Origin: Chiloscyllium plagiosum
Lineage: Eukaryota
DNA: 64,000 nt
Reading direction: 5' to 3'
Assembly: GCF_004010195.1 (NCBI RefSeq)
Contig: NC_057749.1
Location: 11,884,839-11,948,838, forward strand
Shown here: positions 6,085 to 48,489 of the stretch, one piece after another
How the letters are laid out: each line of letters begins with the position of its first letter
Position numbering within the stretch: position 1 is the first letter of the stretch
Translations under genes and position numbers: made by a program
Notes under the pieces: generated by a model
The model's database searches: none
Told to the model about the DNA's origin: nothing
What the model saw: only the letters and a program-made list of their open reading frames with translations

Positions 6085-9000
6085 GTCAGAGTCCTATAGC
6101 ACAGAGACAGGCCCTTTGGCGCAAACTGGTCCATCCTGACCAAAATGTCCATCCATGCTAATCCCATTTCCCTGCACTTGGCCCATATCTCCTGAGTCCT
6201 AGCAACATCCTTACAAATTTCTTCTGCACTCTTTCCAGTTTAATAACATCCTTCCTACAGCAAGGTGACCAAAACTGAACACAATACTCTAAGTGCAGCC
6301 TCACCAACATCCTGTACAACTCTGCAACACAACTTCCCAACTTCTACACTTAATGCCCTAAATGATGAAGGCCAGTGTGCCAAAAGCCTTCTTCACTGCC
6401 CTGTCTACCTGTGACTCCCTTTTCAGACTACCATGCACTTGAACTCCAAGGTCCTTCTGTTAAGACCATAAGACATAGGAGTGGAAGTAAGGTCATTCGG
6501 CCCTTCGAGTCCACTCTTGCCATTCAATCATGGCTGATGAGCATTTCAACGCCACTTATCCGCACTCTCCCTGTATCTCTTAATTCCTTGCAAGATTAAG
6601 AATTTATTAATCTCTATCCTGAAGACATTTAACGTCCCGGCCTCCACTGCGCTCTGTGGTGAATTCCACAGGCCCACCACTTTCTGGCTGAAGAAATGTC
6701 TCCTCACTTCCATTCTAAATTGACCCCCTCTAATTCTAAGGCTGTGCCCACGAGTCCTAGTATCCCTGCCTGACGGAAACAATTTCCCAGCATCCATCTT
6801 TTCTAAGCCTTGTGTTATCTTTTAAGTTTCTATTAGATCTGCTCTCAACCTTCTGAACGCCAATAAATACAATCCCAGGATCCTCAGTCGCTCATCGTAT
6901 GTTAGGCCTACCATTCCAGGGATCATCCGTGTGAATCTCCGCTGGACACACCAGTGCCAGTATGTCCTTCCTGAAGTGTGGGGCCCAAAACTGGACACAG
7001 TATTCTAAAAGTGGCCTAACCAGAGCTTTATAAAGTCATAGTACCACCTCACTGCTTTCACATTCCAACCCTCTTGAAACATTACATTTGCTTTCTTAAC
7101 CATGGACTCAACCTGTAAGTCAACCTTTAGAGAATCCAGTAATAGCACTCCCAGATCCCTTTGTACTTTGGCTTTATGAATTTTCTCAGTTTATAAAATA
7201 GTCTTTGCCTGTGTTCTTTTTTCTGAAGTGCAAGACCTCACATTTGCTCACATTGAATTTCATCAGCCATTTCTTGGACCTTTCTCTTAAATTGTCTAAA
7301 TCTTTCCGCAGGAGAAAGTAAGGACTGCAGATGCTGGGGATCAGAGCTGAAAATGTGTTGCTGGAAAAGCGCAGCAGGTCAGGCAGCATCCAGGGAACAG
7401 GAGAATCGACGTTTCGGGCATAAGCCCTTCTTCTTCCTAAAGAATTTTAGCAACAACCGAGGTTAGGCTAATCGGCTTATAATTTTCCATCATTTGTCTT
7501 GCCCCTTTCTTGAACAAGGGGCTTACAACAGCGATTTTCCAATCATCTGGGACTTTTCCTGACACCAGTGGTTTTTGAAAGATTATAACCAATGCCTTCG
7601 CTATTTCTTCAGCCACCTCCCTTAACTCTAGGATGTAGCCCATCCGGGCCAAGAGATTTATCCGTTTTTAGACCTTTTAGCTTTTCTAGCACTTTCTTTT
7701 GTAATGACCACCATACTCAACTCTGCCCCTTGACTCTCCTTAATTGTTGGGATATTACTCACATCTTCCACTGTGAAGACTGACACCAAGTATTTATTAA
7801 GTTAGAACATAGAACAGTACAGCACAGAACAGGCCCTTCAGCCCACGATGTTGTGCCGACCATTGATCCTGATGTTCTTCAGCTATTTCCTTATCTCCCA
7901 TCACTAGCCTTCCTGCATCAATTTGGAGCGGCCCAATCTCTACTTTTGCCTCTCGTTTGTTTTTTATAAATTGAAAGAAACTTTTACTATCATACTGGCT
8001 AGCTTACCTTCATAATAAATCCTCTCCTTCCTTAGTTCTCTCTTTGTTATCCTCTGTTCGTTTTTGGAGTCTTCCCAATCTTCTGAGTTCCCGGTGCTCT
8101 TGGCCACTTTATAGGCTGTCTCTTTTCCTGGGATACATTTCCTGAGTTCCTTCGTCAGCCATGGTTGTCTAAACACACCACCCCCCACCCTCCTCCAAAC
8201 CCCAGGTGATCTTTCTTTTCTTTAGGATGTACCTCTGTACTGTGCCTTCAATTACACCCAGAAACTCCTGCCATTGTTGCTCTACTGCCTTCCCCACTAG
8301 GCTCTGCTTCCAGTCAGTTTTCGTCAGTTCCTCTCTCATGCCCCTCTCTCATTACCTTTATTTAACTGTAACACCATTAAACCCAATTTTGCCTTCTCTC
8401 TTTCGAACTGCAGACTGAACTCTACCATATTATGATCGCTGCCTCCTAAGTGTCCCCTGACTTTAAGATCTTTTATAAAGTATGGCTCCAGAATAGCCTG
8501 CTCCCTTGTGGGCTCCATCATAAGCTGTTCCAAAAAGTCATCCTGTAAGCATTCCATGAATTCCCTTTCTTGGATCCACCGGCAAAATTATTCACCCAGT
8601 CCATTTGCATATTGAAGTGCCCCATGATCACCGTGACCTGATCTTTCTGACATGCCCTATCTATTTTCTGGTACATCTTGCACCCCTGGCCCTGACCACT
8701 GGTTAGGAGGTCTGTACATAACCCCCATTATGGTTTTTTGCCTTTGTGGTTCCTCAACTCCACCCACACAGACTCCACATCATCTGACCCTATATCATTT
8801 AATGCCAAAGATTTAATTTCATTCTTAACTAACAGAGCAACCCCACCCCCTTTGTCCACCTCCTTGTCTTTTCGATAAGTTGCAAATCCTTGGATGTTTA
8901 ACTGCCAGTCCTGAACCCCCTGCAACCACATCTCTGTGATACCTACCACATCATAATCATTTATGATGATTTGTGCTGTTAATTCATCTGCTTTATTTCG

Positions 9001-9940
9001 AATGCTTCGAGCATTTACCTTAATGCTAGTTTGCTTATCCTCATGATTTCCATCACCTCTACCTAAGTTATCCTTCCTTTTTGCTTCATTCCTAGTCTGT
9101 CTTAAATCCTGCACACATGCTAACCTGCTGCTTAACTTTCTACTTGACTCCATACTCCCTGTTGCTTTCCTGTTTTACTTCTTACACCTACTATTCACCA
9201 CGAAACTCCTGCCTTTGACTTTTCAAAATGCAAGACCTCACCCTTACCTATATTAAAGTCCATTTGCCATTTCTCGACCCATTTCCCCAGCTGATTAAGG
9301 CCCTGCTGCAATTTCTGATAACCTTCCTCACTGCCCATGATACCTCCTATATTACTGTCATCTGCAAACTTACTATTCATGCCTTACACATTTTCATCCA
9401 AATCATAGATATAAATAATGAACAGCAATGGGCCCAGCACCGACCCGAGGCAGTTCACCAGTCACAGGCCTCCAGTCCAAAAGGATTCTTCCACTATTAC
9501 CCTTTGCTTCCTACCATCAAGCCAATTTGCCAGCTCCCCCTGGATTCCATGCGTTCTAACCTTCCAGAGCAGCCTACCATGTGGAATCATATCAAAGGCC
9601 TTACTGAAATCCACATAGACTAGGTCTACTGCCCTGCCCTCATCAACCTTCCTGGTTACTTCAAAAAATTCTTAAATTTGTGAGGCATGATCCCACTCAC
9701 AAAGCCATGATGACTACTCCTAATCAAACCTGTCTTTCCAAACGTGTATATATATCTTCAAATCTTTTCAAGTAACTAACCTACCACAGATGTTAGGCTA
9801 CTGGTCTATAGTTCCCACATTTTCCTTTGCAGCCTTTCTTGAATAAGAGCACAACACTCACTACCCTCCAGTTTTCCAGGACTAATGGCTAATGATGCAA
9901 AAATATCAGCCAGGGCCCTGACAATGTCTTCTCTAACCTT
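6085..9940 (-). mobile_element. Nested CR1 LINE fragments
   Basis: Translations include [10 protein letters not shown]...LERVQ, TRGHSLRIRG, VPDDWKIAVVSPLFKKG, endonuclease YDVVGITEMWL...GGGVALLVK and SKFADD; many stops and frameshifts. Confidence 0.9.
7310..7435 (-). mobile_element. Short hammerhead-bearing element (family A), single arm, inside CR1
   Basis: Minus strand GAAGA-AGGGC-TTAT-GCCC-GAAACGTC with the core truncated at its 5' side; body homologous to 42817-43034. Confidence 0.75.
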
Positions 9941-10086
9941 TTGAGGAGAAAACTGCAACCCAATAATCAGCAACTTGAGAAGGAACTGCCCTCCAACAGC
10001 CAGCAATTTGAGTAGAGGTCAATCTGTACCCTAACAGTCAGAAATTTGAGGAGAGGAAAAACTATAGCTAAACAGTTAGCAACTTG
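9940..10086. repeat. Degenerate ~35-bp minisatellite (right part)
   Basis: Same unit (AACAGTCAG[C/A]AA[T/C]TTGAG...AACTG), about 4 copies, ending just short of the exon 14 donor. Confidence 0.65.
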
Positions 10087-10095
10087 TGCACCCAC

Positions 10096-15566: not shown

Positions 15567-15821
15567 CTGCAAATAATTAGACAAAACCAAACTTTTCAAG
15601 TCAATCACAATTCCTTCAAACATGCAGCACTCTCAAACTGCAATCATTTCACAAACAGTAAACTGTGCTCATCGTCATATGCAAAGTTCTCCTGCTTTAA
15701 TAAAAGGTTTGACAATTCAGTTACTTTACAAACTGAAGGAGGAGCTATTTATTTGGATTTGAATTACAGGCCTCACACATGCAGAGTCACTGAGAGAAAA
15801 ACATTTTCAATTGAGGATAAT

Positions 15822-15925
15822 AAAACAAAGATGAAGAAGGGTCGCCAGACTCGAAACGTTAACTTTGTTTTCTTCCCAAAGATGATGCCAGATCTGCTAG
15901 CAATTTCTGTTTTTGTTTCAGATCT
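15822..15925 (+). mobile_element. Older hammerhead-like element remnant (family C)
   Basis: ATGAAGA-AGGGTC-GCCA-GACTC-GAAACGTT at 15831-15860, flanked by complementary AAAACAAAG and CTTTGTTTT. Confidence 0.55.
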
Positions 15926-16222
15926 TCATTCCAGATCTTCCCTCCACCTCTCCCTAGACACTTCCCATGGACCAAGTGCCTGCATCAAAGTACATTTTGT
16001 CAGAACAATCGCCATATTTCAGATCAGAATTTTCTGACTGAATTTCCAAATCTTACTAACCTCTCAGACTGATCAGTACACATTAACCTGCAGTATAAAT
16101 ACTGTTTGAAGGAGCTCACTCCTTGATATGTTGTACTGTGCTCCATACTCTCCTTCAAACTGGAGATCTGGATGCTACTGTAAAACAAAGGCTTGTGAAC
16201 TAAAAATGCAGCAAGCACCCAC

Positions 16223-16889: not shown

Positions 16890-18740
16890 CATCAGTGCTG
16901 GGAAACCATTGGAAAACATTCTGAGGGACAGAAATTTTAATCTCAATTTAGAGGAGAAAGTGAGGGCTGCAGATGCTGGAGATCAGAGCTGAAAATGTGT
17001 TGCTGGAAAAGAAGAATTAATCAAGGAGAAACAGCATTGCTTTGAGAGGGGGCGATCATGCCTGACAGGTTTGGTTGAGTTTATTGAAGTAACTGGGTGT
17101 GTGAATGATAGTATTGCAGTGGATATCATCTATATAGACTATGGCAGACCATAGATGTAGATAGCTTCCCAGTGGAGATCATGAAGAGCACGAGATTTCT
17201 TGGTGTACACCTGGTGCAGAATCTCACCTGGACCCTCAACACCAGCTCCATAGACAAGAAAGCAATGAGCATCTCTGCTTTTGATGCAAGTTGAGGAAAG
17301 CCCACCTCCCACCCCCAATCCTCACCACATTCTACAATGGGTTCATTGATAGTACCCTCAGCTGCTGCATCACTGCCTGGTTCGGGAACTGCACCATCTT
17401 GGATTGTAAGACCCTGCAACGGAGTGTGAGATGATCATCGGGGTCTCTCTTTCCCCCCCCCTACATTCGGACCACACGCTGAATCTGAAAGGCTAAGAGC
17501 ATTGTGGAAGACCCCACATAACCCTCACTCAAACTCTTTTCCCTCCTGCCATCTGGCAGAAGATACCAGAGCATTCAGTCTCTCACGGCCAGACTGCGCA
17601 ATAGTTTCTTCCTGCAAACCATCAGGCTCCTTAACACAGTATTAATCGGACTCTTTCCCATCTGAAATTCAATGCATGACTTCGAAATGCTGCTGGAAAA
17701 GTGTTTATTATTTATCATACTTCTATTACAGTGTAACTTGTGTGTTTTGCACTTCTTATGCACTTTATGTCATGTATGCGTGTGTAGTTTGTGCTGTCCA
17801 TGTAACAGCTATGGTCTTGAAAGAACGCTGTCGCATTTTTACTGTATCAGTTGTATATGACAAATAAAAAGCTACTCTACTCTAATGTTTTTGACAAGGT
17901 TCTACATAACAGACTAGTCAAGAAGGCAAAAGCCCATAGAATTTAACGAAATTTGCAAATTGGATCAAAATTGGTTTACTGAGTGTAGGCCAAAGGGTGT
18001 TTTTGTGACTGGTAGCCTGAGTCCAGAGTTGTGGACCAGTGCCAGGGATTTGGTGCCAAGTCCTTTGCTGTCTTGTAGTGTACACGAATGATCTGGTCAG
18101 GAATGTGAGGGGTTTGATCAGTAAGTTTGCAATGCCACAAAAAATTAGTAATGTGGTAAACAGCAAACTGGAAAGCCTTGAAGTAAAGGATGTTATAGAC
18201 TGGCTGGTCAGATGGACTGAAGAGTCAAATGGAATTTAATCACAATAAGTGTGAAGTGGTGTATTTTGGAGAACTAACAGAGAAACATATGTTGAATGGT
18301 AGGATCACAGGAAAGGATCAGAAGGACATTAGTGTGCATGCCCATTGATTCTTGAAAGTGGCAGGACAAGTGGATAAGATGGTTAAGGAGGCATATAGTA
18401 AACTTGCCTTTGTCAGACAAGGCACTGAGCAGGTAAGTAATGAAGAAACTGTATGCAATGTGTGGCATTGTCATCCATTTTGAGGTGTACAAAACAATGA
18501 GGCTCATAAATAGGGAAAAGATTTTCCCCTCAGTAAAGGGTCAATTACCTAGAAGGCATGGGTTGAACATTATGGCCTAGAGGTCTAGAGAGGATTTAAA
18601 GGAAAAATGTATCAAGGCAGAAACATAAAAATTTTTACATGATTGCTTGATATACCATAACATAAAAGGCGATGGTATAGGGAACCAGGACTAGAGGGGA
18701 TAGGGGTTTGTTGACCATCACAGACATTCTGCCAAAAGGC
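16890..18740 (+). mobile_element. Decayed CR1 fragment, interrupted by a family A stub (16951-17010) and a Rex/Babar element
   Basis: QHCF..GRSCLT, GLISKFA and KCEVVYFG motifs in broken frames. Confidence 0.7.
17130..17884 (+). mobile_element. Rex1/Babar-type LINE 3' fragment
   Basis: RFLGVHLVQNLTWTLNTSSI.KKA, SCCITAWFGNC, LFSLLPSGRRY; AATAAA plus (CTACT)n tail. Confidence 0.75.
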
Positions 18741-24158: not shown

Positions 24159-24159
24159 G

Positions 24160-24252
24160 ATTCCTGAAGAGTTACACTCGAAACATTGAGTTCTGTACCT
24201 CCTGATACTACCTGGCTTGCTATGTTCTTCCAGCCTCCTGCTTGTCTACTTA
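24160..24252 (+). mobile_element. Degenerate hammerhead-like element remnant
   Basis: TTC-CTGAAGA-GTTACACTC-GAAACATT followed by a family A-like body (CTACCTGGCTTGCT...TTCCAGC). Confidence 0.5.
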
Positions 24253-24288
24253 GCGAATAACAGAACAGACAAGTGAAGAGAACCAGAC

Positions 24289-25032: not shown

Positions 25033-25506
25033 GTATGCGATTCAAAACGCAGAAATCCCTTTTCACTCTCCTCCCTCTCGGCCTTGGACACATGGCCCCA
25101 ACCTCCGAAACGGCATTGGTGGAGACCAATCTGTAGGTACATCTGTCCACAATGGTGTTGACAGATGTGACCATTACACAGTCATTGTGGAATCACAGTG
25201 GCCCGAAACAGGCCTCCAGTGGCTCACTGCAGAGCATGGCGGCAGCTCGTGGTCAGACCATATGGAGGCCCCTACACTAGTCTGCTGCAGAAAACCTTTG
25301 GAGAGAGACTGCGATGTTTGTCTTTTTAATTCTGTTTCTTGTTTTTCTGACCTTTGGTTATACTCTGTATAGATGTAAAGTAACGTTTTTCCTTCATTTC
25401 TCTATTCTGTAACTCAGGATCGTGCCTAGGTACCTCTGTACCATGGTGGCGCTGTAAGTGACGACTTTAAAACTTTTCACTGTATTCATTTGAGTACATG
25501 ACAATA

Positions 25507-26199
25507 AAGTTTTTGTTGCAAACGTTTCGTTCCCTGGCTAGGCGACATCATCAGTGCTTGGGAGCCTCCTGCGAAGCGCTTCTTTGATGTTTCCTCCGGT
25601 GTTTATAGTGGTCTGTCCCTGCCGCTTCCGGTTGTCAGTTTCAGCTGTCCGCTGTAGTGGTTGGTATATTGGGTCCAGGTCGATGTGTTTGTTGATGGAG
25701 TTTGTGGATGAATGCCATGCCTCTAGGAATTCCCTGGCTGTTCTCTGTCTGGCTTGCCCTATGATAGTAGTGTTGTCCCAGTCGAATTCATGCTGCTTGT
25801 TGTCTGCGTGTGGCTATCCTTAGTAGCCACACACGCAGACAACAAGCAACATGAATTCGACTGGGACAACACTACTATCATAGGGCAAGCCAGACAGAGA
25901 ACAGCCAGGGAATTCCTAGAGGCATGGCATTCATCCACAAACTCCATCAACAAACACATCGACCTGGACCCAATATACCAACCACTACAGCGGACAGCTG
26001 AAACTGACAACCGGAAGCGGCAGGGACAGACCACTATAAACACCGGAGGAAACATCAAAGAAGCGCTTCGCAGGAGGCTCCCAAGCACTGATGATGTCGC
26101 CTAGCCAGGGGACGAAACATTTGCAACAAAAACTTCCAGCTCGGCGAACAGAACCACAACAACGAGCACCCGAGCTACAAATCTTCGCACAAACTTTGA
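25507..26199 (+). mobile_element. Penelope-like element 3' fragment with ~310-bp inverted duplication, hammerhead motif and 14-bp TSD
   Basis: Right arm encodes a GIY-YIG C-terminal-like peptide SLVATHADNKQHEFDWDNTTIIGQARQRTAREFLEAWHSSTNSINKHIDL. Arms are 25507-25816 and 25824-26135. TSD ACATGACAATAAAG at 25496-25509 and 26200-26213. Confidence 0.85.
26085..26124 (+). ncRNA. Minimal type I hammerhead ribozyme motif in Penelope pLTR (mirror copy on - at 25518-25557)
   Basis: GCA-CTGATGA-T-GTC.CCT-AGCC-AGG.GAC-GAAAC[A/G]TT-TGC: conserved core, stem II, short stem I (GCA/TGC). Confidence 0.75.
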
Positions 26200-30252: not shown

Positions 30253-30652
30253 AAGTTATTCCTAACCAATCTTGTTTACTGAGCCCTGAATCTCCACTGC
30301 TTTGGGGAGTTTAATAAGACTCAGTGTGCCTGAAAGATTTCTCTCTTGTATAACAAAAAAAACTCTTCATGAAATTAATGTTTATTGCCAACACACTAGG
30401 ACAGGCTTGGACTTGTTTCTGATACTGAGCAGCTAAACCACCTGAAATGTTCCAGCAGATCTCTCTCACCAGAACAGTAGGTGGAAATCTGAACATATGT
30501 CCCCAATAACAGCTGATTGAAAATCACAAAAACTGAGACTGTAAACATTTTCTGTAGGTTTAAGGGGTAGAAACCAAGGCAGGTAGTTGAAGTTAAGATA
30601 CAAGTCAACCATGATCTTATTAAATGATACAACAGGTCCAAGGAACTGAATA

Positions 30653-30777
30653 TTCCTGAAGGAGGGCTCCGGCCCAAAACGGCTGTTTTTCTGCTCCTTG
30701 GATGCTGCCTAACCTGCTGTGCTTTTCCAGCAACACACTCTCAACTCTGATCTCCAGTGTCTGCAGACCTCACTGTC
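30653..30777 (+). mobile_element. Family A hammerhead element, single arm, mutated core
   Basis: TTC-CTGAAGG-AGGGC-TCCG-GCCC-AAAAC; TSD TCCAAGG[A/G]ACTGAATA at 30637-30652 and 30778-30793. Confidence 0.7.
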
Positions 30778-32928
30778 TCCAAGGGACTGAATAGCCTCCT
30801 CATTTTTGCTATCACTGAAAACTATAAAATGGGCACAGTGATGGAAACACCCATCAAAGTTCATCAGACAGACACAAGACGTTGCCAACAGTGCATACAC
30901 GTGTAAGTAGTTGAGACAGGGTCACAAGACAATTCAATTACGTGGAAAACGTCAGACATTGTACCCAGTCCATCAAAAGCAAAACAAATCAGACATTCAA
31001 TCACTGCACCAACAGTCAGCAAAAGGCCTAAGCCCTCTTACAGTGTGCAGGAAATATTCATTCTGCCATTTCTTCAACTGTTCATACAACACAAAATACT
31101 TGCTTTGTGGTGGGTTAAACAATAAGTTTTGTGTTGAATTATTAAAGCTCATTGCCATGTGAGTCATAGAATCATTACTGTTATCACGAGTGTACCACTG
31201 CCTGAAAGTGCTCAGTGTAACTCAGTGGAACACCCGGACATTACCACAGCAATAATGCTGTCAATATATTTTTACTCACCAATGGGATGCAGGTTGGGCC
31301 AGCATTAATTGCCCATCCCTACCTGCCCTCAAGAAGGTGCACGTGAGCTACTACTCACTTGTGACTAAATATCTTCATCCATTCAAAATCCAGTTCAGCA
31401 CAGTTAGCATGGACAGAGCGATTCCACAGTTCATTTTATACCATTGCTGAGTTTTATGGCACAAAAAAACTCCGGTAGAAGCAAATACATTTATGACATG
31501 GAAGGAAAGGATTCAATCCATTAGGCCCAAGTCAGCCAACAAGCAACCAGCCAGTTTAGTCCCACATTGAAATACTTCAACCCATAGCCTTGTGGGTTAC
31601 ATCAGAACAACTGCATACCCAGTACCTTTTAAAAAATGAGGTTTTCTGACTCAAACACCCTTTCACCCTGTAAAATCCAGATCATCTCAATTCTTTGAAT
31701 GAGAACATTGCCCATCACCAGTGCAGCTCTTCAGTAATGACCCGCTGACAATTCCCAAACAGATCTCCCTCCCCCAAGCACTGACCCTCCAACAGCGCAG
31801 TGTTCCCTCAGTGATGTCCTTTTAAAATAGAAAAATTGTGTGTATCTTGTTTAATTTGATGATTAGGTTACAGCATTAATGATGATGATTTCCACTGGTG
31901 AGACACCGACATGCCCAATCATACTACAGCTGGGTTCCAATGTGACAGCCTTCCAAATTATTGTCCCATCAATAATGACATCTGCTCCCAAAAGAGGAAA
32001 TTTACACAGCTGTGACAGAATGAGACAACACTTTCTAAAATTATTTAGAAATAAGCTATTTTGTCAAAACTTGCACCCCTACCCATACCAAGGAGTACTC
32101 TCTCTCTCTCTTATCCTGTACTATCCTGTGCTCCAGTCTCTCAGACTCAGACCAAAGTAACTGAGACACCTGACAGATTGGTGTGACACTGCTGCTGGAA
32201 ATAACAGTATGTCCTAATTAGTCACTACAAGATACACAGCATCAATCAAATCTACCTTTAGTCAGATCTGAGACACTGCAGGGAAGTGAAATTCACCCTC
32301 CAACTGTGATCAACTGTGACATCGCTGCAAAACTGGAACTTAACGATTGTACAAAAACTGACCCACTGCTGTATCCCAAATGTACATTGGTTCCAAATCA
32401 ATCTGAGCAACATATACTGGGTCCTAGGGCAATCAGGATCTACTTGAACAGTAAAAGCAACACCTCAATTTTGAAGCTCACTCCCTTGTTTTAATATGCT
32501 TCCATCGTTCCTCTCTTTTGCCAAACCATTTTAATGTCGCCTGGTGTTGCTCAATATGAAAGGTTATTCGGCCCATCAAGCTGTTACTGATCCCAGTAAC
32601 CTCTGATCAAGAACATGGTTCTCCCCAGACTCTGGTCAATAAACTGCCTGACCAGATTCTCACTCAGAAAACATCAAACCCTGGGCACAATCTGCAGCCC
32701 AGCCTCAGACAGTAGACCCTCTCTTACCAAGGTGCACACCCACAAGGGAACCTTCGGTCCCTCGCCCCCATAACAGCCCACGTTGAGCTCCCACTTCAGG
32801 GGGCCTTTCTCTGGAACTTTTCTCTCCGTTTTCCTTCAAAGTTTCTACCCCGGGCTCAGACTCCTAGCTCTCAGTGCGGCCCTCCCCACTCACCGCCTCC
32901 GCGGCCCCGGCTTCGAGTAAAGACTCAC

Positions 32929-33299: not shown

Positions 33300-33864
33300 A
33301 ATGATGTGGAGGAGCCAGTGTTGGACTGGGGTGGACAAGTTAAAAATCACCCAACACCAAGGTCTGGGCCAACAGGTTTATTTGGAAGCTGTAGCTTTCA
33401 GAGCGCTGCTCCTTCATCAGGTGGGTGTGGAGCGTAAAATCACAAGACACGGAATTTATAGTGAAAGATTACAGTGTCTTGTAACTGAGATTATATATTG
33501 AACAAAAGCTAGTGCTTCCAAATAAACCTGTTGGACCATAAATGGGCAGCACGGTGGCACAGTGGTTAGCACTGCTGCCTCACAGCGCCAGAGACCCGGG
33601 TTCAATTCCCGACTCAGGCGACTGACTGTGTGGAGTTTGCACATTCTCCCCGTGTCTGCGTGGGTTTCCTCCCACAGTCCAAAGATGTGCAGGTTAGGTG
33701 AATTGGCCATGCTAAATTGTCCGTAGTGTTAGGTAAGGGGTAAATGTAGGGGTATGGGTAGTTTGCGCTTCGGCAGGTCGGTGTGGACTTGTTGGGCCGA
33801 AGGGCCTATTTCCACACTGTAAAATAATCTAATCTAATAACCTGGTGTTGTGTGATTTTTAACT
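33300..33864. mobile_element. Family B palindromic hammerhead element, split by a V-SINE
   Basis: Homologous to 48051-48265. Minus-strand CCAC-CTGATGA-AGGAGC-AGC-GCTCT-GAAAGCTA at 33392-33424; right arm at 33503-33541 resumes at 33838-33864. Confidence 0.75.
33544..33836 (+). mobile_element. V-SINE (HE1-like), full length
   Basis: GGGCAGCACGGTGGCACAGTGGTTAGC...GGTTCAATTCC, V-domain, (AATCT)n tail. Confidence 0.9.
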
Positions 33865-34009
33865 CAGAAAAGCGGGTCAGTGGTGCAGAGGGGAGGAAAG
33901 GCCCAGAGGCAAAGCAGTGTTGTCAAAAGTAGAGTGGGTGGGGCCAGGAAGAGGACAGTGTCAGGGTGGTGGGAGCAGGGCCACTAAGGTTGACCTTTCG
34001 GCAAAATGG

Positions 34010-34171
34010 CTACTGCAGATGCTAGAGATTAGAGTCAAGATTAGAGTGGTGCTGGAAAAGCCCAGCAGGTCAGGATTTCTGAGGAAGAGCCTTTGCCTGA
34101 AATGTTTATTTTTCTACTCCTCAGATGCTGCCTGACCTGCTGTGCTTTCCAGCACCACTCTAATCTTGACT
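34010..34171. mobile_element. Family A palindromic element, degenerate hammerhead core
   Basis: Inverted arms 34033-34074 and 34131-34171; CTGAGGA-AGAGC-CTTT-GCCT-GAAAT between them. Confidence 0.7.
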
Positions 34172-34329
34172 TGGCCCTACGAGGGGCTTCCATGAAACCA
34201 ATGTGGGTACGAACACGGGCAAGGAGCCTTGGGGTTGTGGGAGCATTAACAACATGAACAAGGGAAGGATGTCCTTAGGGCAGAGTCATTGCTGGGACCA
34301 TGAGGACAACAGGCTGGAAGTACTGCATG

Positions 34330-34453
34330 GTAAAAACAATGACTGCAGATGCTGGAAACCAGATTCTGGATCAGTGGTGCTGGAAGAGCACAGCAATTCT
34401 CGAATGCTGCCTGAATTGCTGTGCTCTTCCAGCACAACTGATCCAGAATCTGG
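34330..34453. mobile_element. Family A-related hairpin element, ribozyme part deleted, 16-bp TSD
   Basis: CCAGATTCTGGATCAGTGGTGCTGGAAGAGCACAGCAATTC and its near-perfect inverse; TSD CTGGAAGTACTGCATG at 34314-34329 and 34450-34465. Confidence 0.75.
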
Positions 34454-35060
34454 AAGTACTGCATGTCTAGGATAAGATCAGGGAAGGAGTGGATCTAGAG
34501 ACTAATGAATGGGCTGTGGGTCTAGATCAAGCCCTGGGAAACATCACCCCTCTGATGGTGTGGGATCAACAGGTGAATGGGATTCAGGGCAGACAAAGGA
34601 GTTTTTGATGATCTCAAGTGTGTGGTGTGGGTAACCAGCTAAGAGTACATTGGAATAATCACATCTGGACATAACAAAGGAATGAACACAATGTTCTGTA
34701 ACAGAATAACTCAGATGATGCAAAGTTGGATTCTGTTCCAGAGGTAGAAATAGGTAGGCTTAATGATCACTCAATTGTGTGTTCCAAAGCTCCTCTTGAT
34801 GTCAAATGTAACACGCAAACTTAGTATGTTGCCAGGGGGAGGGCTGGATTTGATAGCTATTCAACAGTAGATTGGAAGTAATTTCTCTTATCTGGTACTT
34901 GATGTTGATGTGCTGTCTTATATTGTTACAAAAGAAGAGATATCCAGAGTGGTGACTGTGACCAAAGGGCAACATGTAGGTGACAAATAGGAAGACAACA
35001 AAGAGATTTCTTTGAATATGGTGATAACAATGGAGCAAGAAGAAAAGTCCTTGCATGTGA

Positions 35061-36863: not shown

Positions 36864-37053
36864 TCTAGATCAGAGTGGTGCTGGAAAAGCCCAGCAGGTC
36901 AGGCAGCATCCGAGGAGCAGGAAAATCAACGTTTCGGGCAAAAGCCTTTCATTTTCCTGCTCCTCGGTTGCTGCCTGACCTGCTGTGGTTTTCCAGCACC
37001 ACTCTAATCTAGACTCTTGTTTCCAGCATCTGCAGTCCTTATTTTTACCTCAA
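36864..37053. mobile_element. Family A palindromic hammerhead element, 12-bp TSD
   Basis: Inverted arms around ~36926-36952. Minus ATGA-AAGGC-TTTT-GCCC-GAAACGTT, with the core cut by the junction. TSD CACTATAGAGGG at 36852-36863 and 37054-37065. Confidence 0.78.
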
Positions 37054-42365: not shown

Positions 42366-42816
42366 TTTATAATTCTTGTGAGTTTAAAGACAGTTTTCGT
42401 TAGTAGAAAAGATCTTATGTAATTTCTCACATCAAATAGACAACACATACTCATCACCTTGGATGAATTTACAGTGTGACTGAGCTGGAGAATGCAGGAA
42501 CATTTCTGGCACTTCCACAATTTAGTGCTGTTTATATTAAGGCATTCTGCTTGATTGGCACCCCATCCACCAGGTCAAACATACACTCCCTCCACCACCA
42601 GTGCATCGGAGAAACAGTGTGTACATCTCCAAGATGCAAAGCAGCAACTTGCCAAGGTTCATCTTCCAGCACAGAATCTCAACCACTGAGAAAGACAAAG
42701 GCAACAGAAGCATGGGACACCACCACCTGCAATTTCAGCTTCAAGTCACCTTTCACTCTAACCTGGGAAATATTACCATTCCTTCAACCTTGACCATTGC
42801 TTGACCAACACTCAGG

Positions 42817-43034
42817 AACTTTATTGCTGGAACAGCACAGCAGGTCAGGCAGCATCCAGGGAACAGGAGATTCGACGTTTCGGGCACAGGCCCTCCTTCC
42901 TGAAGAAGGGCCTGTGCCCGAAACGTCGAATCTTCTGTTCCCTGGATGCTGCCTGACCTGCTGTGCTGTTCCAGCAATAAAGTTTCAACTTTGATCTCCA
43001 GCATCTGCAGACCTCACTTTCTCCTCGAAGATTT
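42817..43034 (+). mobile_element. Family A palindromic hammerhead element, best-preserved copy, 15-bp TSD
   Basis: Arms 42817-42894 and 42907-42984, nearly perfect. TSD CAACACTCAGGAACT at 42806-42820 and 43035-43049. Confidence 0.85.
42897..42930 (+). ncRNA. Minimal type I hammerhead ribozyme motif, intact core
   Basis: TTC-CTGAAGA-A-GGGC-CTGT-GCCC-GAA-ACGT-C/GAA: CUGANGA core, 4-bp stem II, palindromic ACGU stem III, GUC cleavage triplet, stem I TTC/GAA. Confidence 0.8.
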
Positions 43035-43070
43035 CAACACTCAGGAACTCCTTCCCTAAGAGCACATGAA

Positions 43071-46000
43071 TTAGACAATAGACAATAGGTGCAGGAGTAA
43101 GCCATTCTGCCCTTCGAGCCTGCACCACCGTTCCATATGATCATGGCTGATCATCCTTAATCAGTATCCTGTTCCTGCCTTATCTCCATAACCCTTGATT
43201 CCCCACTATCCTTGACAGCTCTATCCAACTCTTTCTTAAATGAATCCAGAGACTGGACCTCCACTGCCCTCTGGGGCAGAGCATTCCACACAGTCACCAC
43301 TCTCTGGGTGAAGAGGTTTCTCCTCATCTCTGTCCTAAATGGTCTACCCTGTATTTTTAAGCTGTGTCCTCTGGTTCGGCACTCACCCATCAGCAGAAAC
43401 ATGTTTCCTGCCTCCACAGTGTCGAATCCTTTAATAATCTTATATGTCTCAAACAGATCCCCTCTCAGTCTTCTAAACTCAAGGGTATACAAGCCCAATC
43501 GCTCCAGTCTTTCAATGTAAGGTAATCCCCCCATCCCAGGAATTGACCTCGTGAACCTACGCTGCACTCCCTCAATAGCCAGAATGTCTTTCCTCAAATT
43601 TGGAGTTCAGAACTGCACACAGTACTCCAGGTGTGGTCTCAGCAGGGCCCTGTACAGCTGCAGAAGAATTTGCTTCTATACTCAATCCGTCTTGTTATGA
43701 AGGCCAGCATACTATTAGCCTTCTTCATTACCTGCTGTACCTGCATGCTTACCTTCATTGACTGGTGTACAAGAACACCCAGATCTCTCTGTACTGCCCC
43801 TTTACCTAAATTGATTCCATTTAGGTAGTAATCTGCCTTCCTGTTCTTGTCACCAAAGTGAATAACCATACATTTATCCACATTAAACTGCATCTGCCAT
43901 GCATCTGACCACTCACCTAACTTGTCCAGGTCACCCTGTAATCTCCTAACATCCTCATCACATTTCACCCACCTTTGTATCATCAGCAAATTTGCTAATG
44001 TTATTACTAATACCACCTTCAATATCATTAACATATATTGTAAAAAGCAGCGGTCCCAGCACGGATCCCTGCGGTACCCCACTGGTCACTGCCTGCCATT
44101 CCGAAATGGAGCCGTTTATCACTACCCTTTGTTTCCTATCAGCCAACCAATTTTCAATCCAATCCAGTACTTTGCCCCCAATACCATGCNNNNNNNNNNN
44201 NNNNNNNNNNNNNNNNNNNNNNNNNNNNNNNNNNNNNNNNNNNNNNNNNNNNNNNNNNNNNNNNNNNNNNNNNNNNNNNNNNNNNNNNNNNNNNNNNNNN
44301 NNNNNNNNNNNNNNNNNNNNNNNNNNNNNNNNNNNNNNNNNNNNNNNNNNNNNNNNNNNNNNNNNNNNNNNNNNNNNNNNNNNNNNNNNNNNNNNNNNNN
44401 NNNNNNNNNNNNNNNNNNNNNNNNNNNNNNNNNNNNNNNNNNNNNNNNNNNNNNNNNNNNNNNNNNNNNNNNNNNNNNNNNNNNNNNNNNNNNNNNNNNN
44501 NNNNNNNNNNNNNNNNNNNNNNNNNNNNNNNNNNNNNNNNNNNNNNNNNNNNNNNNNNNNNNNNNNNNNNNNNNNNNNNNNNNNNNNNNNNNNNNNNNNN
44601 NNNNNNNNNNNNNNNNNNNNNNNNNNNNNNNNNNNNNNNNNNNNNNNNNNNNNNNNNNNNNNNNNNNNNNNNNNNNNNNNNNNNNNNNNNNNNNNNNNNN
44701 NNNNNNNNNNNNNNNNNNNNNNNNNNNNNNNNNNNNNNNNNNNNNNNNNNNNNNNNNNNNNNNNNNNNNNNNNNNNNNNNNNNNNNNNNNNNNNNNNNNN
44801 NNNNNNNNNNNNNNNNNNNNNNNNNNNNNNNNNNNNNNNNNNNNNNNNNNNNNNNNNNNNNNNNNNNNNNNNNNNNNNNNNNNNNNNNNNNNNNNNNNNN
44901 NNNNNNNNNNNNNNNNNNNNNNNNNNNNNNNNNNNNNNNNNNNNNNNNNNNNNNNNNNNNNNNNNNNNNNNNNNNNNNNNNNNNNNNNNNNNNNNNNNNN
45001 NNNNNNNNNNNNNNNNNNNNNNNNNNNNNNNNNNNNNNNNNNNNNNNNNNNNNNNNNNNNNNNNNNNNNNNNNNNNNNNNNNNNNNNNNNNNNNNNNNNN
45101 NNNNNNNNNNNNNNNNNNNNTACACAGAAATATCTGTCATTGTTCCTCCACTGTCATCCCTGCTAAGGTATTGCACCATTGAACTTTGGCCAGCTCCTCC
45201 CTCATAGCTCTATAGTTCCCTTTATTCAACAGAAATATTGTCACTTCTGATTGTACCCTCTCCCTCTCAAATTGCAGATAGAAGCTTATTGTATTATGGT
45301 CACTACTTCCCAATGGCTCCTTCACTTCAAGGTCCCTGACCAATTCTGGTTCGTTGCACAATACCAGATCCAGAATTGCCTTCTCCCTGGTCGGCTCCAG
45401 CACCAGCTGTTGTAAGAATCCATCTCTGAGGCACTCCACAAAGTTTCTTTCTTGAGGTCGAATACCATCCTGATTCTCCCAGTCTACCTGCATGTTGAAA
45501 TCCCCCATAACAACTGTTGTAACATCTTTGCGACAGGCCAATTTCAGCTCCTGATTTAACTTACATCCGACATCCAGACTACTGTTTGGGGGCCTGTAGA
45601 TAACTCCCAAGAGGGTCTTTTTACCCTTCTTATTTCTCAGCTCTATCCACACTGACTCTACATCCCTTGATTCTCGGTCCCCCCGCGCAAGGGACTGAAT
45701 ATCATCCTTTACCAACATGGCCACCCCACCTCCTCTGCCCGTCAGTCTGTCCTTACGATAGCACGTGTAGCCTTGAATATTTATTTCCCAGGCCCTGTCC
45801 ACTTGAAGCCACGTCTCAGTTATCCCCACAATATCGTATCTGCCAATTTCCAAAAGAGCTCATCCATCTTATTCCAAATGCTTCGTGCATTCATGTATAG
45901 TATTTTTAATTTGTTACTGCCCTCACCCTTCCCATCAACTCCTATTTCACTCAACCTTACAGCATGATCCCTTTCTGAGTTTTCTGCCTCATTGATTCAG

Positions 46001-46461: not shown

Positions 46462-47785
46462 TTAGCAAAAGGTCTCGGTGGATTTTTTCTTTGGTCCTGG
46501 TGCTCGGCTGCTGCCTGTTCGCCGGGGCTCTCTGTACACCTGGCGGGGCTCACCATATGCCTGGCGCAAATCTTTTGTGCTGAATGCTTGTTTTGGTTTG
46601 TTGAAGCTTTCTCCCATCATGGGCACTGTTTTCCTGCAATGTCCATGAAGACTCTTTGACCTCGAGGTGGTGAATCTATCTGGTGTGACTGTTAGAAAGT
46701 TCTTAGACTTTGAAACTGTCCTTAGTAGCTCTCCTCTAGAGATACAGGGATCCAAGACATAGCTGGAAGTGTCAGTGTCCTCCTCTGTATCTGTCAGCTC
46801 TTGTTTTTGTTCTGCCAGTGTCTCAGGAGAGGATGGTAATGTTTGGGGAGTGGCTTCTTCGACCATTACTTGTTCTTCAGGCAGATTTTTATAAAACTTA
46901 TGGTCACACTGAGTGACCCATTCTGAAGTCTTTGTAGAAGAGGGTTTGACAGTACGTACATGATCTATAATATAGTCATTGTCTGAACTCTGGATTTCTT
47001 CTTGACCAGATACCCTACCTTCTAACCCAATGACAACGCTTCGAGACTTTACCACTGTGGTCTGGCATGCACTATAAGTCTGTGAAGAAAAATAATTAGC
47101 TGTTTTGGCCTTCTCCAAGGGAAACGAGAAACGAGTTTCCAATTTTGTTCGTCCTACTGATCCAGCTTTTGTTACTAATTTTCCATTAAGCCCAGCTTCT
47201 GCTGTATGCAGGAACTTTTGGTAATTAGCTTCCTCTTTTGTGTTCAGTGGGTTCAGACAATCATCAGATGAGGAAACAAAGATATCGACACATGAGTTGA
47301 AATTCCTGGGGTCCTGTGTAATTCCCAGCCTCAGGCTTTTCTCCCTCATTTTACGGGAGCTGGAGGATTGGTGGAACCCAAACCGGTGTTTTGGTGTCAT
47401 GCTCACTTTCTGTTCTACAAGTTCTTTTTCATCTCTCGGAGTAATAGCAGAATAACTCTTCCTGTGAGATCCCATTGAAGGAGACATTAGACCCATGCTG
47501 TCTTCAAAGTTAGTGTCATCTCCATCCATATTGAAACGATACATGCTGGTTGCCTCGGTACTGTTTTGTCTGATTAGGTAGGAGGCATCACATTCTGAAG
47601 GACACCTTGAACGAGTGTGAGTTAGCTCAGCCTTATCAATACCAGCCAGAACTTCCATTGCATTGACCATGCGGCCAGAGAATTCCTCCAATTGGGCCAA
47701 TCGAATGTCAACAGTTTGGAGTGACGCTTTCATGAAATGTTCTCTTTCATTCACCTCCTCCAAGCGCATTGCCATATTCTCCACT
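46462..47785 (-). CDS. TRPM1: TRPM1 last coding exon (coiled coil and long C-terminal tail)
   Basis: Acceptor tttcAG; (R)VENMAMRLEEVNEREHFMKASLQTVDIRLAQLEE...RSKSLHGH...STETFC*; 1324 nt open. Confidence 0.93.
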
Positions 47786-48050
47786 CTGAAACAGAAAAAT
47801 AATTATCACATCAATGAGATCCAGTTTCTGAATGAAGTGCATAACTGCAATTTTACTCTAGCAAGATTACTTTAGATTCTAGAAATCTGAAATTAAAACA
47901 GAAAATGCTCTAAATTCTGAGCAGTTCAGGCAACATCTGCAGAGAGAAACTCAAATTTAATTAACTTGAATTTTAAATCAGGGTCAGGAAGCTGGTGCCT
48001 GAATTATCTCTAACTCTCAATTTAGTGCTACATCTGAACACTCTTCTAAC

Positions 48051-48265
48051 ATGATTTGGAGATGCCGGTGTTGGACTGGGGTATACAAAGTTAAAAATCA
48101 CACAACACCAGGTTATAGTCCAACAGGTTTAATTGGAAGCACACTAGCTTTCGGAGCGTCGCTCCTTCATCCACTACCACTTGATGAAGGAGCGTCGCTC
48201 CGAAAGCTAGTGTGCTTCCAATTAAACCTGTTGGACTATAACCTGGTGTTGCGTGATTTTTAACT
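48051..48265. mobile_element. Family B palindromic hammerhead element in last TRPM1 intron
   Basis: Arms 48089-48171 and 48183-48265. CAC-TTGATGA-A-GGAGC-GTC-GCTCC-GAA-AGCT-A/GTG. TSD ACTCTTCTAAC at 48040-48050 and 48263-48273. Confidence 0.82.
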
Positions 48266-48489
48266 CTTCTAACTTGATTTCGAAATTCAAATATCCTAAT
48301 TGTCTGGTGCTCAGCACCCAAACACTGAGTGTATTTAAGAGGGAAGAAGTGTCTGCAGAACACAAACAGCAAAGGCAGATGGGAACCCTGATGGAGCCTG
48401 CCGATGCATTGCGAAAGAACTCAGGAGAGGTTTTTAAAATCTCCAGCACAGGCACAAACAGGACACAGTGTATAAGATATAATCGAGGT

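What the first reader, a model, noticed from the sequence alone, without database searches (positions are those of the whole stretch)
7310..48273. At least four distinct hammerhead-element families, about ten copies in ~41 kb, with covarying stems
Seen: family A at 7310, 16951 (stub), 30653, 34010, 34330, 36864 and 42817 has stem II GGGC/GCCC with variable loops (TTAT, CTGT, TCCG, TTTT) and stem III ACGT. Family B at 33300 and 48051 has GGAGC/GCTCC and AGCT. Family C at 15831 has GGGTC/GACTC. The Penelope copy at 26088 has GTC.CCT/AGG.GAC. Different stems around a shared core, with stem III staying palindromic (ACGT or AGCT), is the covariation expected of a functional RNA. TSDs are 11-16 bp where visible. 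Inference: this genome has been heavily colonised by short ribozyme-containing retroelements, a class distinct from its tRNA SINEs.
Basis: partly seen in the sequence, partly recalled or inferred. Interest (0 to 1): 0.78.

Follow-up and report, generated by a model that had tools for sequence, protein, structure and literature searches.

The report
Penelope retroelement hammerhead relics, shark-type genome
These are mostly worn-out tail-end copies of Penelope-like jumping genes, each built around the small hammerhead self-cutting RNA motif already known from such elements, so the catch is real but of a known kind.

Summary
The motifs exist and are not chance. A minimal-hammerhead descriptor finds 1 strict hit in the window (42900-42927, +) and 2 with one core mismatch allowed, against 0 in 300 dinucleotide shuffles. 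Only one arm is fully intact. Two A loci (16951, 34330) hold no hammerhead.

The elements are 3'-terminal pieces of Penelope-like elements (PLEs). In other genome copies the same units follow RT/GIY-YIG reading frames. Insertions have 11-16 bp target duplications, an adjacent inverted 5'-truncated arm and a one-sided tail of about 36 nt, the published PLE signature.

The motif matches the published PLE min-HHR feature by feature. Helices differ compensatorily between families, but independent events are few.

RNA reads cross the predicted cut site without a pile-up of ends. Cleavage is untested.

Other windows of this genome gave the same result earlier in this scan. Verdict: new member of a known kind, low interest.

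The parts
7310..7436 (-). Family A solo unit. The hammerhead relic at 7402-7436 keeps GGGC-TTAT-GCCC, GAAA and CG-TC. The CUGANGA box reads AAGAAGA (two core changes).
   Evidence: (R1 28.7 bits, E 1.8e-05)
15828..15960 (+). Family C unit. The relic at 15828-15866 has GGGTC-GCCA-GACTC, GAAA and CG-TT. C3 is lost (ATGAAGA) and helix I is not paired. It belongs to an old family (74-88% identity to other copies).
   Evidence: (34.6 bits)
16951..17011 (-). Family A 3' stub covering unit positions about 70-130. It holds no hammerhead.
24159..24240 (+). CTGAAGA and GAAA are present, but helix II is broken by a deletion.
   Evidence: (19 bits, E 0.01)
25510..26199 (.). Family P fold-back insertion: a 5'-truncated PLE with its centre near 25820, inside the tail of the reading frame. 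Motif copies lie at 25515-25559 (-) and 26083-26127 (+). The flanking 14-bp duplication is ACATGACAATAAAG (25496-25509 and 26200-26213).
   Evidence: (42.1 and 38.3 bits)
30647..30795 (+). Family A solo unit. The relic at 30651-30689 has GGGC-TCCG-GCCC but carries A9>G, G12>A and U16.1>G.
   Evidence: (14 bits, E 0.28)
33307..33865 (.). Family B fold-back. The (-) arm has both core boxes intact at 33386-33425, with a G-U closing pair and an unpaired helix I. The (+) arm is split by a tRNA-like SINE at about 33545-33830.
34012..34171 (.). Family A fold-back. The relic at 34074-34112 (+) has both boxes present, but helix II (GAGC/GCCT), positions 15.2-16.2 (TG) and helix I are degraded.
   Evidence: (30.3 bits)
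34330..34449 (.). Family A fold-back truncated at about unit position 50, so it holds no hammerhead. The 16-bp duplication is CTGGAAGTACTGCATG (34314-34329 and 34450-34465).
36864..37053 (.). Family A fold-back whose centre lies inside the motif. The relic at 36922-36960 (-) has a deletion in the CUGANGA box and G10.1>A. The 12-bp duplication is CACTATAGAGGG (36852-36863 and 37054-37065).
   Evidence: (18.2 bits)
42821..43034 (.). Young family A fold-back. The sense arm carries the only fully intact min-HHR in the window (42897-42930: TTC, CTGAAGA, A, GGGC-CTGT-GCCC, GAAA, CG, TC, GAA). The predicted cut lies between 42927 and 42928. In the inverted arm (42868-42906, -) the junction overwrites the CUGANGA box. 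The 15-bp duplication is CAACACTCAGGAACT (42806-42820 and 43035-43049). One contig of a run labelled as another organism (run X2, organism B) shows the empty site.
   Evidence: (43 bits)
48051..48267 (.). Family B fold-back. The long arm, with its tail, spans 48051-48171. The short arm spans 48178-48267. The motif at 48181-48209 (+) is complete except C3>T. In the other arm the junction alters the box. The flanking 11-bp exact repeat is ACTCTTCTAAC (48040-48050 and 48263-48273).

Best explanation
The window holds 12 insertions of the terminal unit of Penelope-like retroelements (PLEs). They belong to four sequence families; A and C are related to each other.

Each unit is about 95-130 nt. It begins with a minimal type-I hammerhead (min-HHR) laid out as follows:
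- a helix I of 3-4 bp
- CUGANGA
- one unpaired base
- a helix II closed by G10.1-C11.1
- GAAA
- a self-complementary 15.2-16.2 dinucleotide
- U-H

Shown:
- The motif and its layout.
- The link to RT/GIY-YIG reading frames.
- The target duplications, the fold-back architecture and the one-sided tail.
- Recent activity of some subfamilies.

Inferred:
- Copies arise by target-primed reverse transcription that starts at one of two internal sites about 36 nt apart. These sites would be the two unit ends, and the stretch between them the 'tail'.
- Synthesis runs to the 5' end of the template, which for many copies lies right at helix I.
- It often turns back on the new cDNA, giving an inverted arm.

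Every copy that still carries the motif came from an RNA that was not cut there.

In source elements the hammerhead probably acts, if at all, as a weak dimer-dependent self-cleaving motif on multimeric or read-through PLE transcripts. In this window all but one copy are inert relics. In fold-back copies the motif is locked inside a long hairpin.
For: Motif:
- The descriptor gives 1 strict and 2 near-strict hits against 0 in 300 shuffles.
- A covariance model built from A, C and P copies finds 9 window sites at E <= 0.02.

PLE link:
- Of 29 loci of the young A subfamily, 9 continue upstream into a shared sequence.
- In L006 that upstream sequence holds a frame with GIY-YIG (PF01541, 23.0 bits against a cutoff of 22.6).
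- That frame has 20 longer relatives. All 20 carry PF26215, 9 carry RVT_1 and 7 carry GIY-YIG.
- Frames upstream of B units match residues 545-777 and 791-900 of a 902-aa RVT_1+GIY-YIG protein (E 5e-26 and 7e-18).
- The frame that ends in P's motif is 86% identical to the C-terminus of an RVT_1-bearing protein.

Architecture:
- 10 of those 29 A loci have an adjacent inverted arm of about 83-95 nt (122 nt in one locus, L027) beside a 125-134-nt sense arm.
- Duplications measure 11-16 bp.
- One contig shows an empty site that skips 229 nt, with 14 letters shared by both sides.
- These features match the published PLE descriptions: an inverted 5'-truncated copy and a 30-40-bp tail at one end (PMC8557442, passages), and two internal RT start sites that bracket the tail (PMC11167929, passages).

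Motif features match PMC4209133.

Structure:
- In 83 distinct copies not filtered for structure, 82.3% of cells pair, against 17-42% when the partners are slid. Helix II pairs in 93.6% of cells.

Activity:
- Copies are 96-100% identical for A, 94-98% for B and 98-100% for P.
- Exact intact motifs number 3,883 for B, 3,549 for P and 37 for young A.
Against: - Rfam reports no hammerhead family, even at E <= 10 on a 261-nt stretch holding the intact copy.
- Pfam finds nothing in the decayed frames upstream of B and P units. P's frame tail shows no similarity to the A-type PLE protein.
- Helix I is only 3-4 bp and pairs in 66.3% of cells.
- In sampled copies or arms the fully intact share is 29 of 74 (A), 30 of 56 (B), 4 of 24 (C) and 1 of 6 (P).
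- The window has 1 intact arm.
- RNA reads of run X19 (714 laid) cover 42916-42939 at even depth. No place stands out where molecules begin or end.
- In the fold-back RNA the hammerhead fold costs 46 kcal/mol more than the hairpin.
- The number of pairs with a double change (7) does not exceed shuffles.
- Self-cleavage was not tested.
- The unit's 5' end, a few bases before the box, is not the end that cleavage would give.
Confidence: 0.9

Rival explanations
1. The short units are non-LTR retrozymes. These are non-autonomous PLE derivatives that live as head-to-tail tandem repeats. They are transcribed, cut at two hammerheads, circularised and copied back from the RNA circles.
For: - They have a type-I hammerhead and are related to PLEs.
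- Such elements are reported in 20 of 31 sampled vertebrate genomes, including the one Chondrichthyes species sampled (bioRxiv 10.64898/2026.07.22.740005, Results read).
- Of 29 young-A loci, 20 start within a few bases of the motif, so the short unit is a discrete entity.
- One contig each in runs X1 and X2 joins a unit's end (43025) back to a unit's start (42897), with 12 or 32 letters between (table 5c).
Against: - The window has no tandem array of units. Tandem Repeats Finder gives 1 unrelated row.
- The copies are solo or inverted pairs, not direct repeats.
- An inverted pair puts only one sense motif in a transcript.
- No go-back joint appears in the raw RNA reads of X19.
- Unit ends do not coincide with the predicted cut site.
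Confidence: 0.06
2. The fold-back elements are MITE-like DNA transposons or generic palindromes. The hammerhead-like core would then be a by-product of their sequence.
For: - The elements form long, near-perfect hairpins. Rfam gives sub-threshold hits to hairpin miRNA families at 25745-25897, 48129-48225 and 36886-36992.
- MFE of the 229-nt stretch 42806-43034 (the 214-nt element plus its left target duplication) is -177.9 kcal/mol.
Against: - Duplications vary from 11 to 16 bp.
- The arms are unequal and the palindrome centre moves: unit start, about unit position 50, inside the motif, or inside a reading frame.
- Solo units without any inverted arm are common (9 of 29).
- The same units continue upstream into RT/GIY-YIG frames.
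- Four families unrelated in flanking sequence share the same core and layout.
Confidence: 0.02
3. The motif is kept in PLEs for a role other than cleavage. It could be a structural mark at the 5' edge of the template that the PLE protein or the transcription machinery recognises. The short units would then be their own transcription units.
For: - Every motif-bearing copy derives from an uncut RNA. This follows from the layout: the cut would separate the core from the rest of the unit.
- In 20 of 29 young-A loci the insertion starts within a few bases of helix I. Many B and C copies do the same.
- For an anole PLE, hammerhead mutants did not affect insertion in vitro, and no reads began or ended at the cut site (PMC11167929, passage).
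- Min-HHRs cut poorly in vitro (PMC4209133).
- No pile-up of read ends appears at the site here.
Against: - The catalytic boxes, G10.1-C11.1 and the self-complementary 15.2-16.2 pair are exactly what catalysis as a dimer needs. They are kept in families with unrelated flanks.
- The library laid is a poly(A) single-cell one, which cannot show 5'-OH fragments or starts well.
- No start site was mapped.
Confidence: 0.2

Closest known systems
Minimal hammerheads (min-HHR) in the pseudo-LTRs of metazoan Penelope-like elements (Cervera and De la Pena 2014, PMC4209133; text read)
   Same: - Type-I layout without a closed helix III.
- CUGANGA and GAAA boxes.
- An unpaired base between positions 9 and 10.1.
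- The G10.1-C11.1 pair.
- Self-complementary 15.2-16.2 (CG in A, C and P; GC in B).
- A short helix I.
- Several consensus families per genome with compensatory differences.
- Most motifs are dispersed as single copies or as close pairs on opposite strands.
- Association with PLE reading frames.
   Different: - Helix II is 4-5 bp in families A, B and C. The paper describes 7-8 bp for its trematode families; P has 7.
- The host is a shark-type genome, which is not among the species named in the parts I read.
- Cleavage was not tested here.
Canonical PLE insertion architecture and internal initiation (Craig et al. 2021, PMC8557442, passages; PAc study 2024, PMC11167929, passages)
   Same: - Heavy 5' truncation.
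- An inverted 5'-truncated copy directly adjacent.
- A 30-40-bp tail at one end only; here the two arm ends lie about 36 nt apart.
- In P the start codon sits in the hammerhead region and opens a frame, as in the anole element.
- RNA reads run across the cut site.
   Different: - Here most copies are extreme truncations that keep only the 95-130-nt terminal unit.
- Their 5' ends cluster at helix I, a point not addressed in the passages I read.
Non-LTR retrozymes of animals (Cervera and De la Pena 2020, PMC7229834, search listing only; Li et al. 2026 preprint, Results read)
   Same: Short non-autonomous PLE-related sequences with type-I hammerheads. Monomers are dispersed through genomes.
   Different: - Retrozymes are defined by head-to-tail tandem units and circular RNAs.
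- The window has no tandem units.
- The laid reads show no circle joints.
Rfam hammerhead families (canonical type I, II and III models; names recalled)
   Same: They share the same catalytic core boxes.
   Different: No hit appears at gathering score or at E <= 10. This is as expected for a motif without helix III and with a 3-4-bp helix I.

Membership tests
PLE min-HHR (Cervera and De la Pena 2014) | Conserved boxes CUGANGA and GAAA, followed by U16.1 and H17 | tested here: met
   In the window all are present at 42900-42927, 26088-26124, 25515-25559 (-), 33386-33425 (-) and 34079-34106. In sampled genome copies, box 1 is intact in 55 of 74 (A), 43 of 56 (B), 13 of 24 (C) and 4 of 6 (P).
PLE min-HHR (Cervera and De la Pena 2014) | One unpaired nucleotide between A9 and G10.1, and a G10.1-C11.1 closing pair | tested here: met
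   The unpaired base is A in families A, B and C, and U in P. G-C closes helix II in 64 of 83 distinct A, C and P copies, and G-U in 14.
PLE min-HHR (Cervera and De la Pena 2014) | Self-complementary 15.2-16.2 in place of a closed helix III (dimer model) | tested here: met
   CG or another standard pair is present in 66 of 83 distinct A, C and P copies, and in 54 of 56 B copies or arms. P's exact motif with ACGT occurs 3,549 times, against 192 for the window's ACAT form.
PLE min-HHR (Cervera and De la Pena 2014) | Short helix I flanking the core, supported by compensatory change | tested here: inconclusive
   Majority forms have 3-4 bp: AUUC/GAAU, CAC/GUG, GUU/AAC and GCA/UGC. Only 66.3% of cells pair, and older A copies have 2 bp.
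PLE min-HHR (Cervera and De la Pena 2014) | Location in the terminal repeat of an element encoding RT plus GIY-YIG endonuclease | tested here: met
   A. B. P: one search shows RVT_1 in relatives; GIY-YIG was not shown by Pfam for P.
PLE min-HHR (Cervera and De la Pena 2014) | Self-cleavage at H17, as a dimer | not testable with these tools
   Reads of one poly(A) single-cell RNA run cross the site with no pile-up of ends. This library type cannot settle the question.
Non-LTR retrozyme | Head-to-tail tandem repeats of the hammerhead unit | tested here: not met
   Tandem Repeats Finder gives 1 row in the window, unrelated. The copies are solo or inverted.
Non-LTR retrozyme | Unit-length circular RNA joined at the cut site | tested here: inconclusive
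   No such joint appears in the 714 raw reads laid from X19. The library is poly(A)-selected.
Rfam hammerhead models | Score at or above the family's gathering threshold | tested here: not met
   There are 0 hammerhead matches at gathering score, at E <= 10 on the whole window and at E <= 10 on 42780-43040.
MITE / DNA transposon | Fixed-length target duplication and symmetric terminal inverted repeats | tested here: not met
   Duplications measure 11, 12, 14, 15 and 16 bp. The arms are unequal and the centres shift.

The most novel reading that the evidence does not exclude
The 95-130-nt hammerhead-fronted units may be a discrete class of template, not random truncations. Their RNA 5' end would be set exactly at helix I, by a start site in the terminal repeat. 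They would then behave as a SINE-like parasite of the PLE machinery. The uncut hammerhead would serve as a structural mark for the reverse transcriptase or for 5'-end definition, rather than as a nuclease.
Probability: 0.2. Interest if true: 0.45.

Novelty: new member of a known kind. Interest (0 to 1): 0.2.

Why it matters
It matters little for ribozyme biology. Minimal hammerheads in Penelope-like elements, their family-wise compensatory changes and the fold-back, tailed insertion structure are all in print.

For annotating this genome it is useful:
- Thousands of identical intact motifs show recent PLE activity (3,883 for B and 3,549 for P). A likely lineage-specific or polymorphic insertion points the same way.
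- The fold-backs explain spurious microRNA-like hairpin hits.
- The density in this window is simply the genome's background.

The clustering of 5' ends at helix I is the one point that could teach something about how PLE templates are made.

Tried and rejected
- **Rfam.** Searches at gathering score and at E <= 10 gave no hammerhead.
- **Bare box.** Counting CTGANGA alone is uninformative: 62 found against 48.5 expected.
- **Model R1.** It was built without family B and does not find the B copies. It is therefore not a general min-HHR detector.
- **Seed alignment A1.** I picked its rows by eye, so its 87.6% pairing is biased. One search repeats the count on 83 copies not filtered for structure.
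- **Pfam.** It found nothing in the post-RT frame of L006, P's frame tail, B's upstream frames or the decayed P-type frames. BLASTP of P's tail against the A-type PLE protein found nothing. The protein atlas gave only a lead (PF26215, score 0.91, 151 shared features).
- **A wrong idea, dropped.** I first thought the young P family had lost the self-complementary 15.2-16.2 pair. Exact counts show otherwise: 192 for the ACAT form against 3,549 for ACGT.
- **Sequencing runs.** No RNA holder is listed in the index. Run X20 laid 0 reads, so it is no test.
- **Two-sided target priming.** I considered it as the source of the inverted arms. Symmetric centres at internal positions (25820, about unit position 50, inside the motif) fit a turn-back on one cDNA better. 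This is inference only.
- **Supplements.** I did not read the supplementary figures of PMC4209133, which hold the descriptor and the vertebrate families. They may list further fish families.

Full report
**Observation**

I read every listed place and mapped the families by BLAST of one unit of each family against the window.

Family A has seven loci:
- 7310-7433 (-)
- 16951-17011 (-), a stub
- 30647-30795 (+)
- 34012-34171, fold-back
- 34330-34439, fold-back
- 36860-37051, fold-back
- 42817-43026, fold-back

Family B has two loci: 33338-33865, split by a SINE, and 48089-48272. Family C has one (15820-15960). The "Penelope" family, here P, has one fold-back with two motif copies (25507-26215). 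A covariance model built later found one more decayed A/C-type copy at 24159. That makes 12 loci.

**Chance**

The bare CTGANGA box is barely enriched: 62 found against 48.5 expected, and 3 of 100 shuffles reach 62. I wrote a descriptor for the full minimal hammerhead. It requires:
- a helix I of 3 bp or more
- CUGANGA
- 0-1 unpaired base
- a helix II of 4-8 bp closed by G-C
- a loop of 3-8 nt
- GAAA
- self-complementary 15.2-16.2
- U, then H

It finds 1 strict hit (42900-42927, +). Allowing one core mismatch adds 48181. In 300 dinucleotide-preserving shuffles there were 0 strict hits, 0 hits with one mismatch, and a mean of 0.01 with two. The motif is real. But only one arm in the window is fully intact.

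The rows and searches show what is broken elsewhere:
- 7402-7436: the box reads AAGAAGA.
- 30651-30689: three core changes.
- 36922-36960: a deletion in the box.
- 34074-34112: degraded helices.
- 15828-15866: C3 is lost.
- 48181: C3>T.
- P's right arm: ACAT where its left arm has ACGT.
- 34330 is truncated at about unit position 50 and has no hammerhead.

Rfam reports no hammerhead family at gathering score, at E <= 10 on the window, or at E <= 10 on a 261-nt stretch with the intact copy. Its best sub-threshold hits are hairpin microRNA families lying on the fold-backs.

**What the elements are**

The window lies in a 3.56-Gb assembly.

| Family | Identity of other copies to the window unit | Candidates of the first look (40 scored each; lower bounds, not copy numbers) |
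|---|---|---|
| Young A | 96-100% | 453 |
| B | 94-98% | 289 |
| C | 74-88% | 1,157 |
| P | 98-100% | 1,233 |

Exact-string counts over the whole assembly (reversed-pattern controls all 0):

| Motif | Exact copies |
|---|---|
| B 40-mer, intact | 3,883 |
| P 40-mer with ACGT | 3,549 |
| P 40-mer, the window's ACAT form | 192 |
| Young A 41-mer | 37 |

I looked at 29 loci of the young A subfamily, one of them the window's own copy:
- 9 continue upstream into a shared sequence.
- 10 have an adjacent inverted arm, and 1 more has a very short one.
- 9 are solo units with unrelated upstream DNA.

In L006 the shared upstream sequence holds a frame with a GIY-YIG domain (PF01541, 23.0 bits, cutoff 22.6). 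That frame has 20 longer relatives. All 20 carry PF26215, 9 carry RVT_1 and 7 carry GIY-YIG. One 902-aa protein carries all of them. The three closest are named by their sources as uncharacterised proteins of three shark species.

Frames upstream of B units match residues 545-777 and 791-900 of that 902-aa protein (E 5e-26 and 7e-18). The frame that ends inside P's motif is 86% identical to the C-terminus of an RVT_1-bearing protein.

An RT followed by a C-terminal GIY-YIG nuclease is the defining make-up of endonuclease-positive Penelope-like elements (PMC8557442 abstract).

Results against this reading:
- Pfam found nothing in the decayed B- and P-type frames.
- P's tail does not resemble the A-type protein.

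**Architecture**

Target duplications:

| Element | Length |
|---|---|
| 48051 | 11 bp |
| 36864 | 12 bp |
| P | 14 bp |
| 42821 | 15 bp |
| 34330 | 16 bp |

In fold-backs the two arms are unequal. For young A the inverted arm is about 83-95 nt in nine of the ten loci (122 nt in L027) and the sense arm 125-134 nt, a one-sided extension of about 36 nt. In B one arm likewise carries about 33 extra bases.

The palindrome centre moves between copies:
- the unit start (42817)
- about unit position 50 (34330)
- inside the motif (36864)
- inside the reading frame (25820)

One contig of run X2, labelled as another organism, joins 42805 to 43035. It skips 229 nt, and 14 letters fit either side. This is an empty site for the 42821-43034 insertion.

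These features are in print for PLEs:
- heavy 5' truncation, an inverted 5'-truncated copy directly adjacent, and a 30-40-bp tail at one end (PMC8557442, passages)
- reverse transcription starting at two internal sites that bracket the tail (PMC11167929, passages)

In P the AUG inside CUGAUGA opens 42 codons without a stop. This resembles the anole element, whose frame starts at stem II.

**The motif against the published min-HHR**

[quoted passage not shown] They note that most copies occur singly or as close pairs on opposite strands.

The majority forms here are:

| Family | Helix I 5' | Box | Unpaired base | Helix II (loop in the middle) | Box | 15.2-16.2 | U-H | Helix I 3' |
|---|---|---|---|---|---|---|---|---|
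| A | AUUC | CUGAAGA | A | GGGC-CUGU-GCCC | GAAA | CG | UC | GAAU |
| B | CAC | CUGAUGA | A | GGAGC-GUC-GCUCC | GAAA | GC | UA | GUG |
| C | GUU | CUGAUGA | A | GRGUC-ACCA-GACUC | GAAA | CG | UU | AAC |
| P | GCA | CUGAUGA | U | GUCGCCU-AGCC-AGGGGAC | GAAA | CG | UU | UGC |

The loop in family A varies. A and C share downstream blocks, so they are related. B and P are unrelated to them outside the core.

**Covariation**

On 16 copies that I picked by eye, 87.6% of cells pair. That set is biased.

On all 83 distinct A, C and P copies retrieved by homology alone:
- 82.3% of cells pair, against 17-42% when the partners are slid by 1-3 columns.
- Helix II pairs in 93.6% of cells and helix I in 66.3%.
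- Cells with a change on both sides number 103, against 44.5 in shuffles (0 of 500 shuffles reach it).
- The number of pairs with such a change is 7, against 7.2 in shuffles (382 of 500 reach it).

The compensatory signal is therefore real, but it lies between three or four lineages. It is not many independent events.

Fully intact copies or arms in the sampled sets: 29 of 74 (A), 30 of 56 (B), 4 of 24 (C), 1 of 6 (P). Four loci that overlap the window or each other were dropped before this count.

**Density**

Model R1 finds A/C/P-type relics at 12 places (14 hits) in the 29 loci that were fetched for family B, about 88 kb in all. That is about one per 7 kb. The window's load is the genome's background.

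**How it works**

Shown:
- the layout of the motif
- its link to PLE frames
- the retro-insertion marks
- recent activity

Inferred:
- Target-primed reverse transcription starts at one of two internal sites and runs to the template's 5' end.
- It often turns back on the new cDNA. Symmetric centres at internal positions favour this over independent priming from both DNA ends.

Every motif-bearing copy came from an RNA that was not cut there, because the cut would part the core from the rest of the unit.

In the fold-back RNA the hammerhead fold costs 46 kcal/mol more than the hairpin. In the sense arm alone it costs 3.8.

Raw reads of one poly(A) single-cell RNA run (714 laid from about 2% of the run) show the following:
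- Depth is even across 42916-42939, and no place stands out where molecules begin or end.
- 54 reads continue upstream into the PLE's shared sequence.
- 280 reads run on into diverse flanks, so most are parts of longer transcripts.

This library cannot show 5'-OH fragments, so cleavage remains open. The anole study also saw no reads at the cut site and found cleavage unnecessary for insertion in vitro.

**An open point**

In 20 of 29 young-A loci the insertion starts within a few bases of helix I. Many B and C copies do the same. This is not the end that cleavage would give. A start site in the terminal repeat, or a stall of the enzyme there, would explain it. Neither was tested.

**Novelty**

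I searched the paper library for hammerhead ribozyme with Penelope-like and dimer, with pLTR and inverted, and for Penelope with shark and hammerhead ribozyme. I also searched for Penelope-like with elasmobranch and retrotransposon.
- The only paper holding Penelope, shark and hammerhead ribozyme together uses "shark" for the shape of the fold.
- A 2026 preprint reports retrozymes and PLEs in one Chondrichthyes species.

The kind is known. These shark-type families are new members at most. Earlier follow-ups of this scan reached the same verdict on other windows of this genome.

Noticed in passing
window 42805-43035: One contig of run X2 (labelled as another organism; depth 14.6) joins the two flanks and skips 229 nt, with 14 letters shared by both sides. 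This is an empty site for the young family A insertion, so that insertion is lineage-specific or polymorphic.
   Followed up: partly
window 26091-26216 (+): The AUG inside P's CUGAUGA box opens 42 codons without a stop, running on past the element's 3' end (26199) into the flanking target duplication. In a published anole PLE the reading frame likewise starts at stem II of the hammerhead.
   Followed up: partly
window 4335-5099 (-) and 46462-47802 (-): These are host-gene exons. One open frame carries a myotubularin-associated 3-PAP domain (E 2.4e-41). Another carries a TRPM tetramerisation domain (E 9.8e-20).
   Followed up: no
window 45137-45859 (-) and 54198-54890 (-): These look like LINE-type fragments. 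One frame carries an AP-type endonuclease domain (E 5.3e-13) and another carries RVT_1 (E 2.6e-26). They are unrelated to the PLE units.
   Followed up: no
window 44190-45120: A run of 931 N lies here. Several long 'open frames' listed across it are artefacts of the Ns.
   Followed up: no
window about 33545-33830: A tRNA-like SINE, recognised by eye, is inserted into one arm of the family B fold-back. Rfam called no tRNA at gathering score.
   Followed up: no
window 25745-25897, 48129-48225, 36886-36992, 34358-34454: Sub-threshold Rfam hits to microRNA precursor families fall here (for example MIR9672, 63.7 bits against a threshold of 74). They are the perfect hairpins of the PLE fold-backs, not microRNA genes.
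   Followed up: yes
proteins P0024, P0027, P0030: Some predicted host proteins in public shark and fish annotations end in the PLE frame tail: isoforms of a 5'-nucleotidase-domain protein and of MAP3K7. This suggests exonised or mis-annotated PLE fragments.
   Followed up: no
loci L009/L010 (one contig): Two identical family A fold-backs lie 567 bp apart in the same orientation. An insertion appears to have been copied along with a larger tandem repeat.
   Followed up: no
window 9995-10076: A 38-nt tandem repeat with 2.2 copies. It is unrelated to the finding.
   Followed up: no
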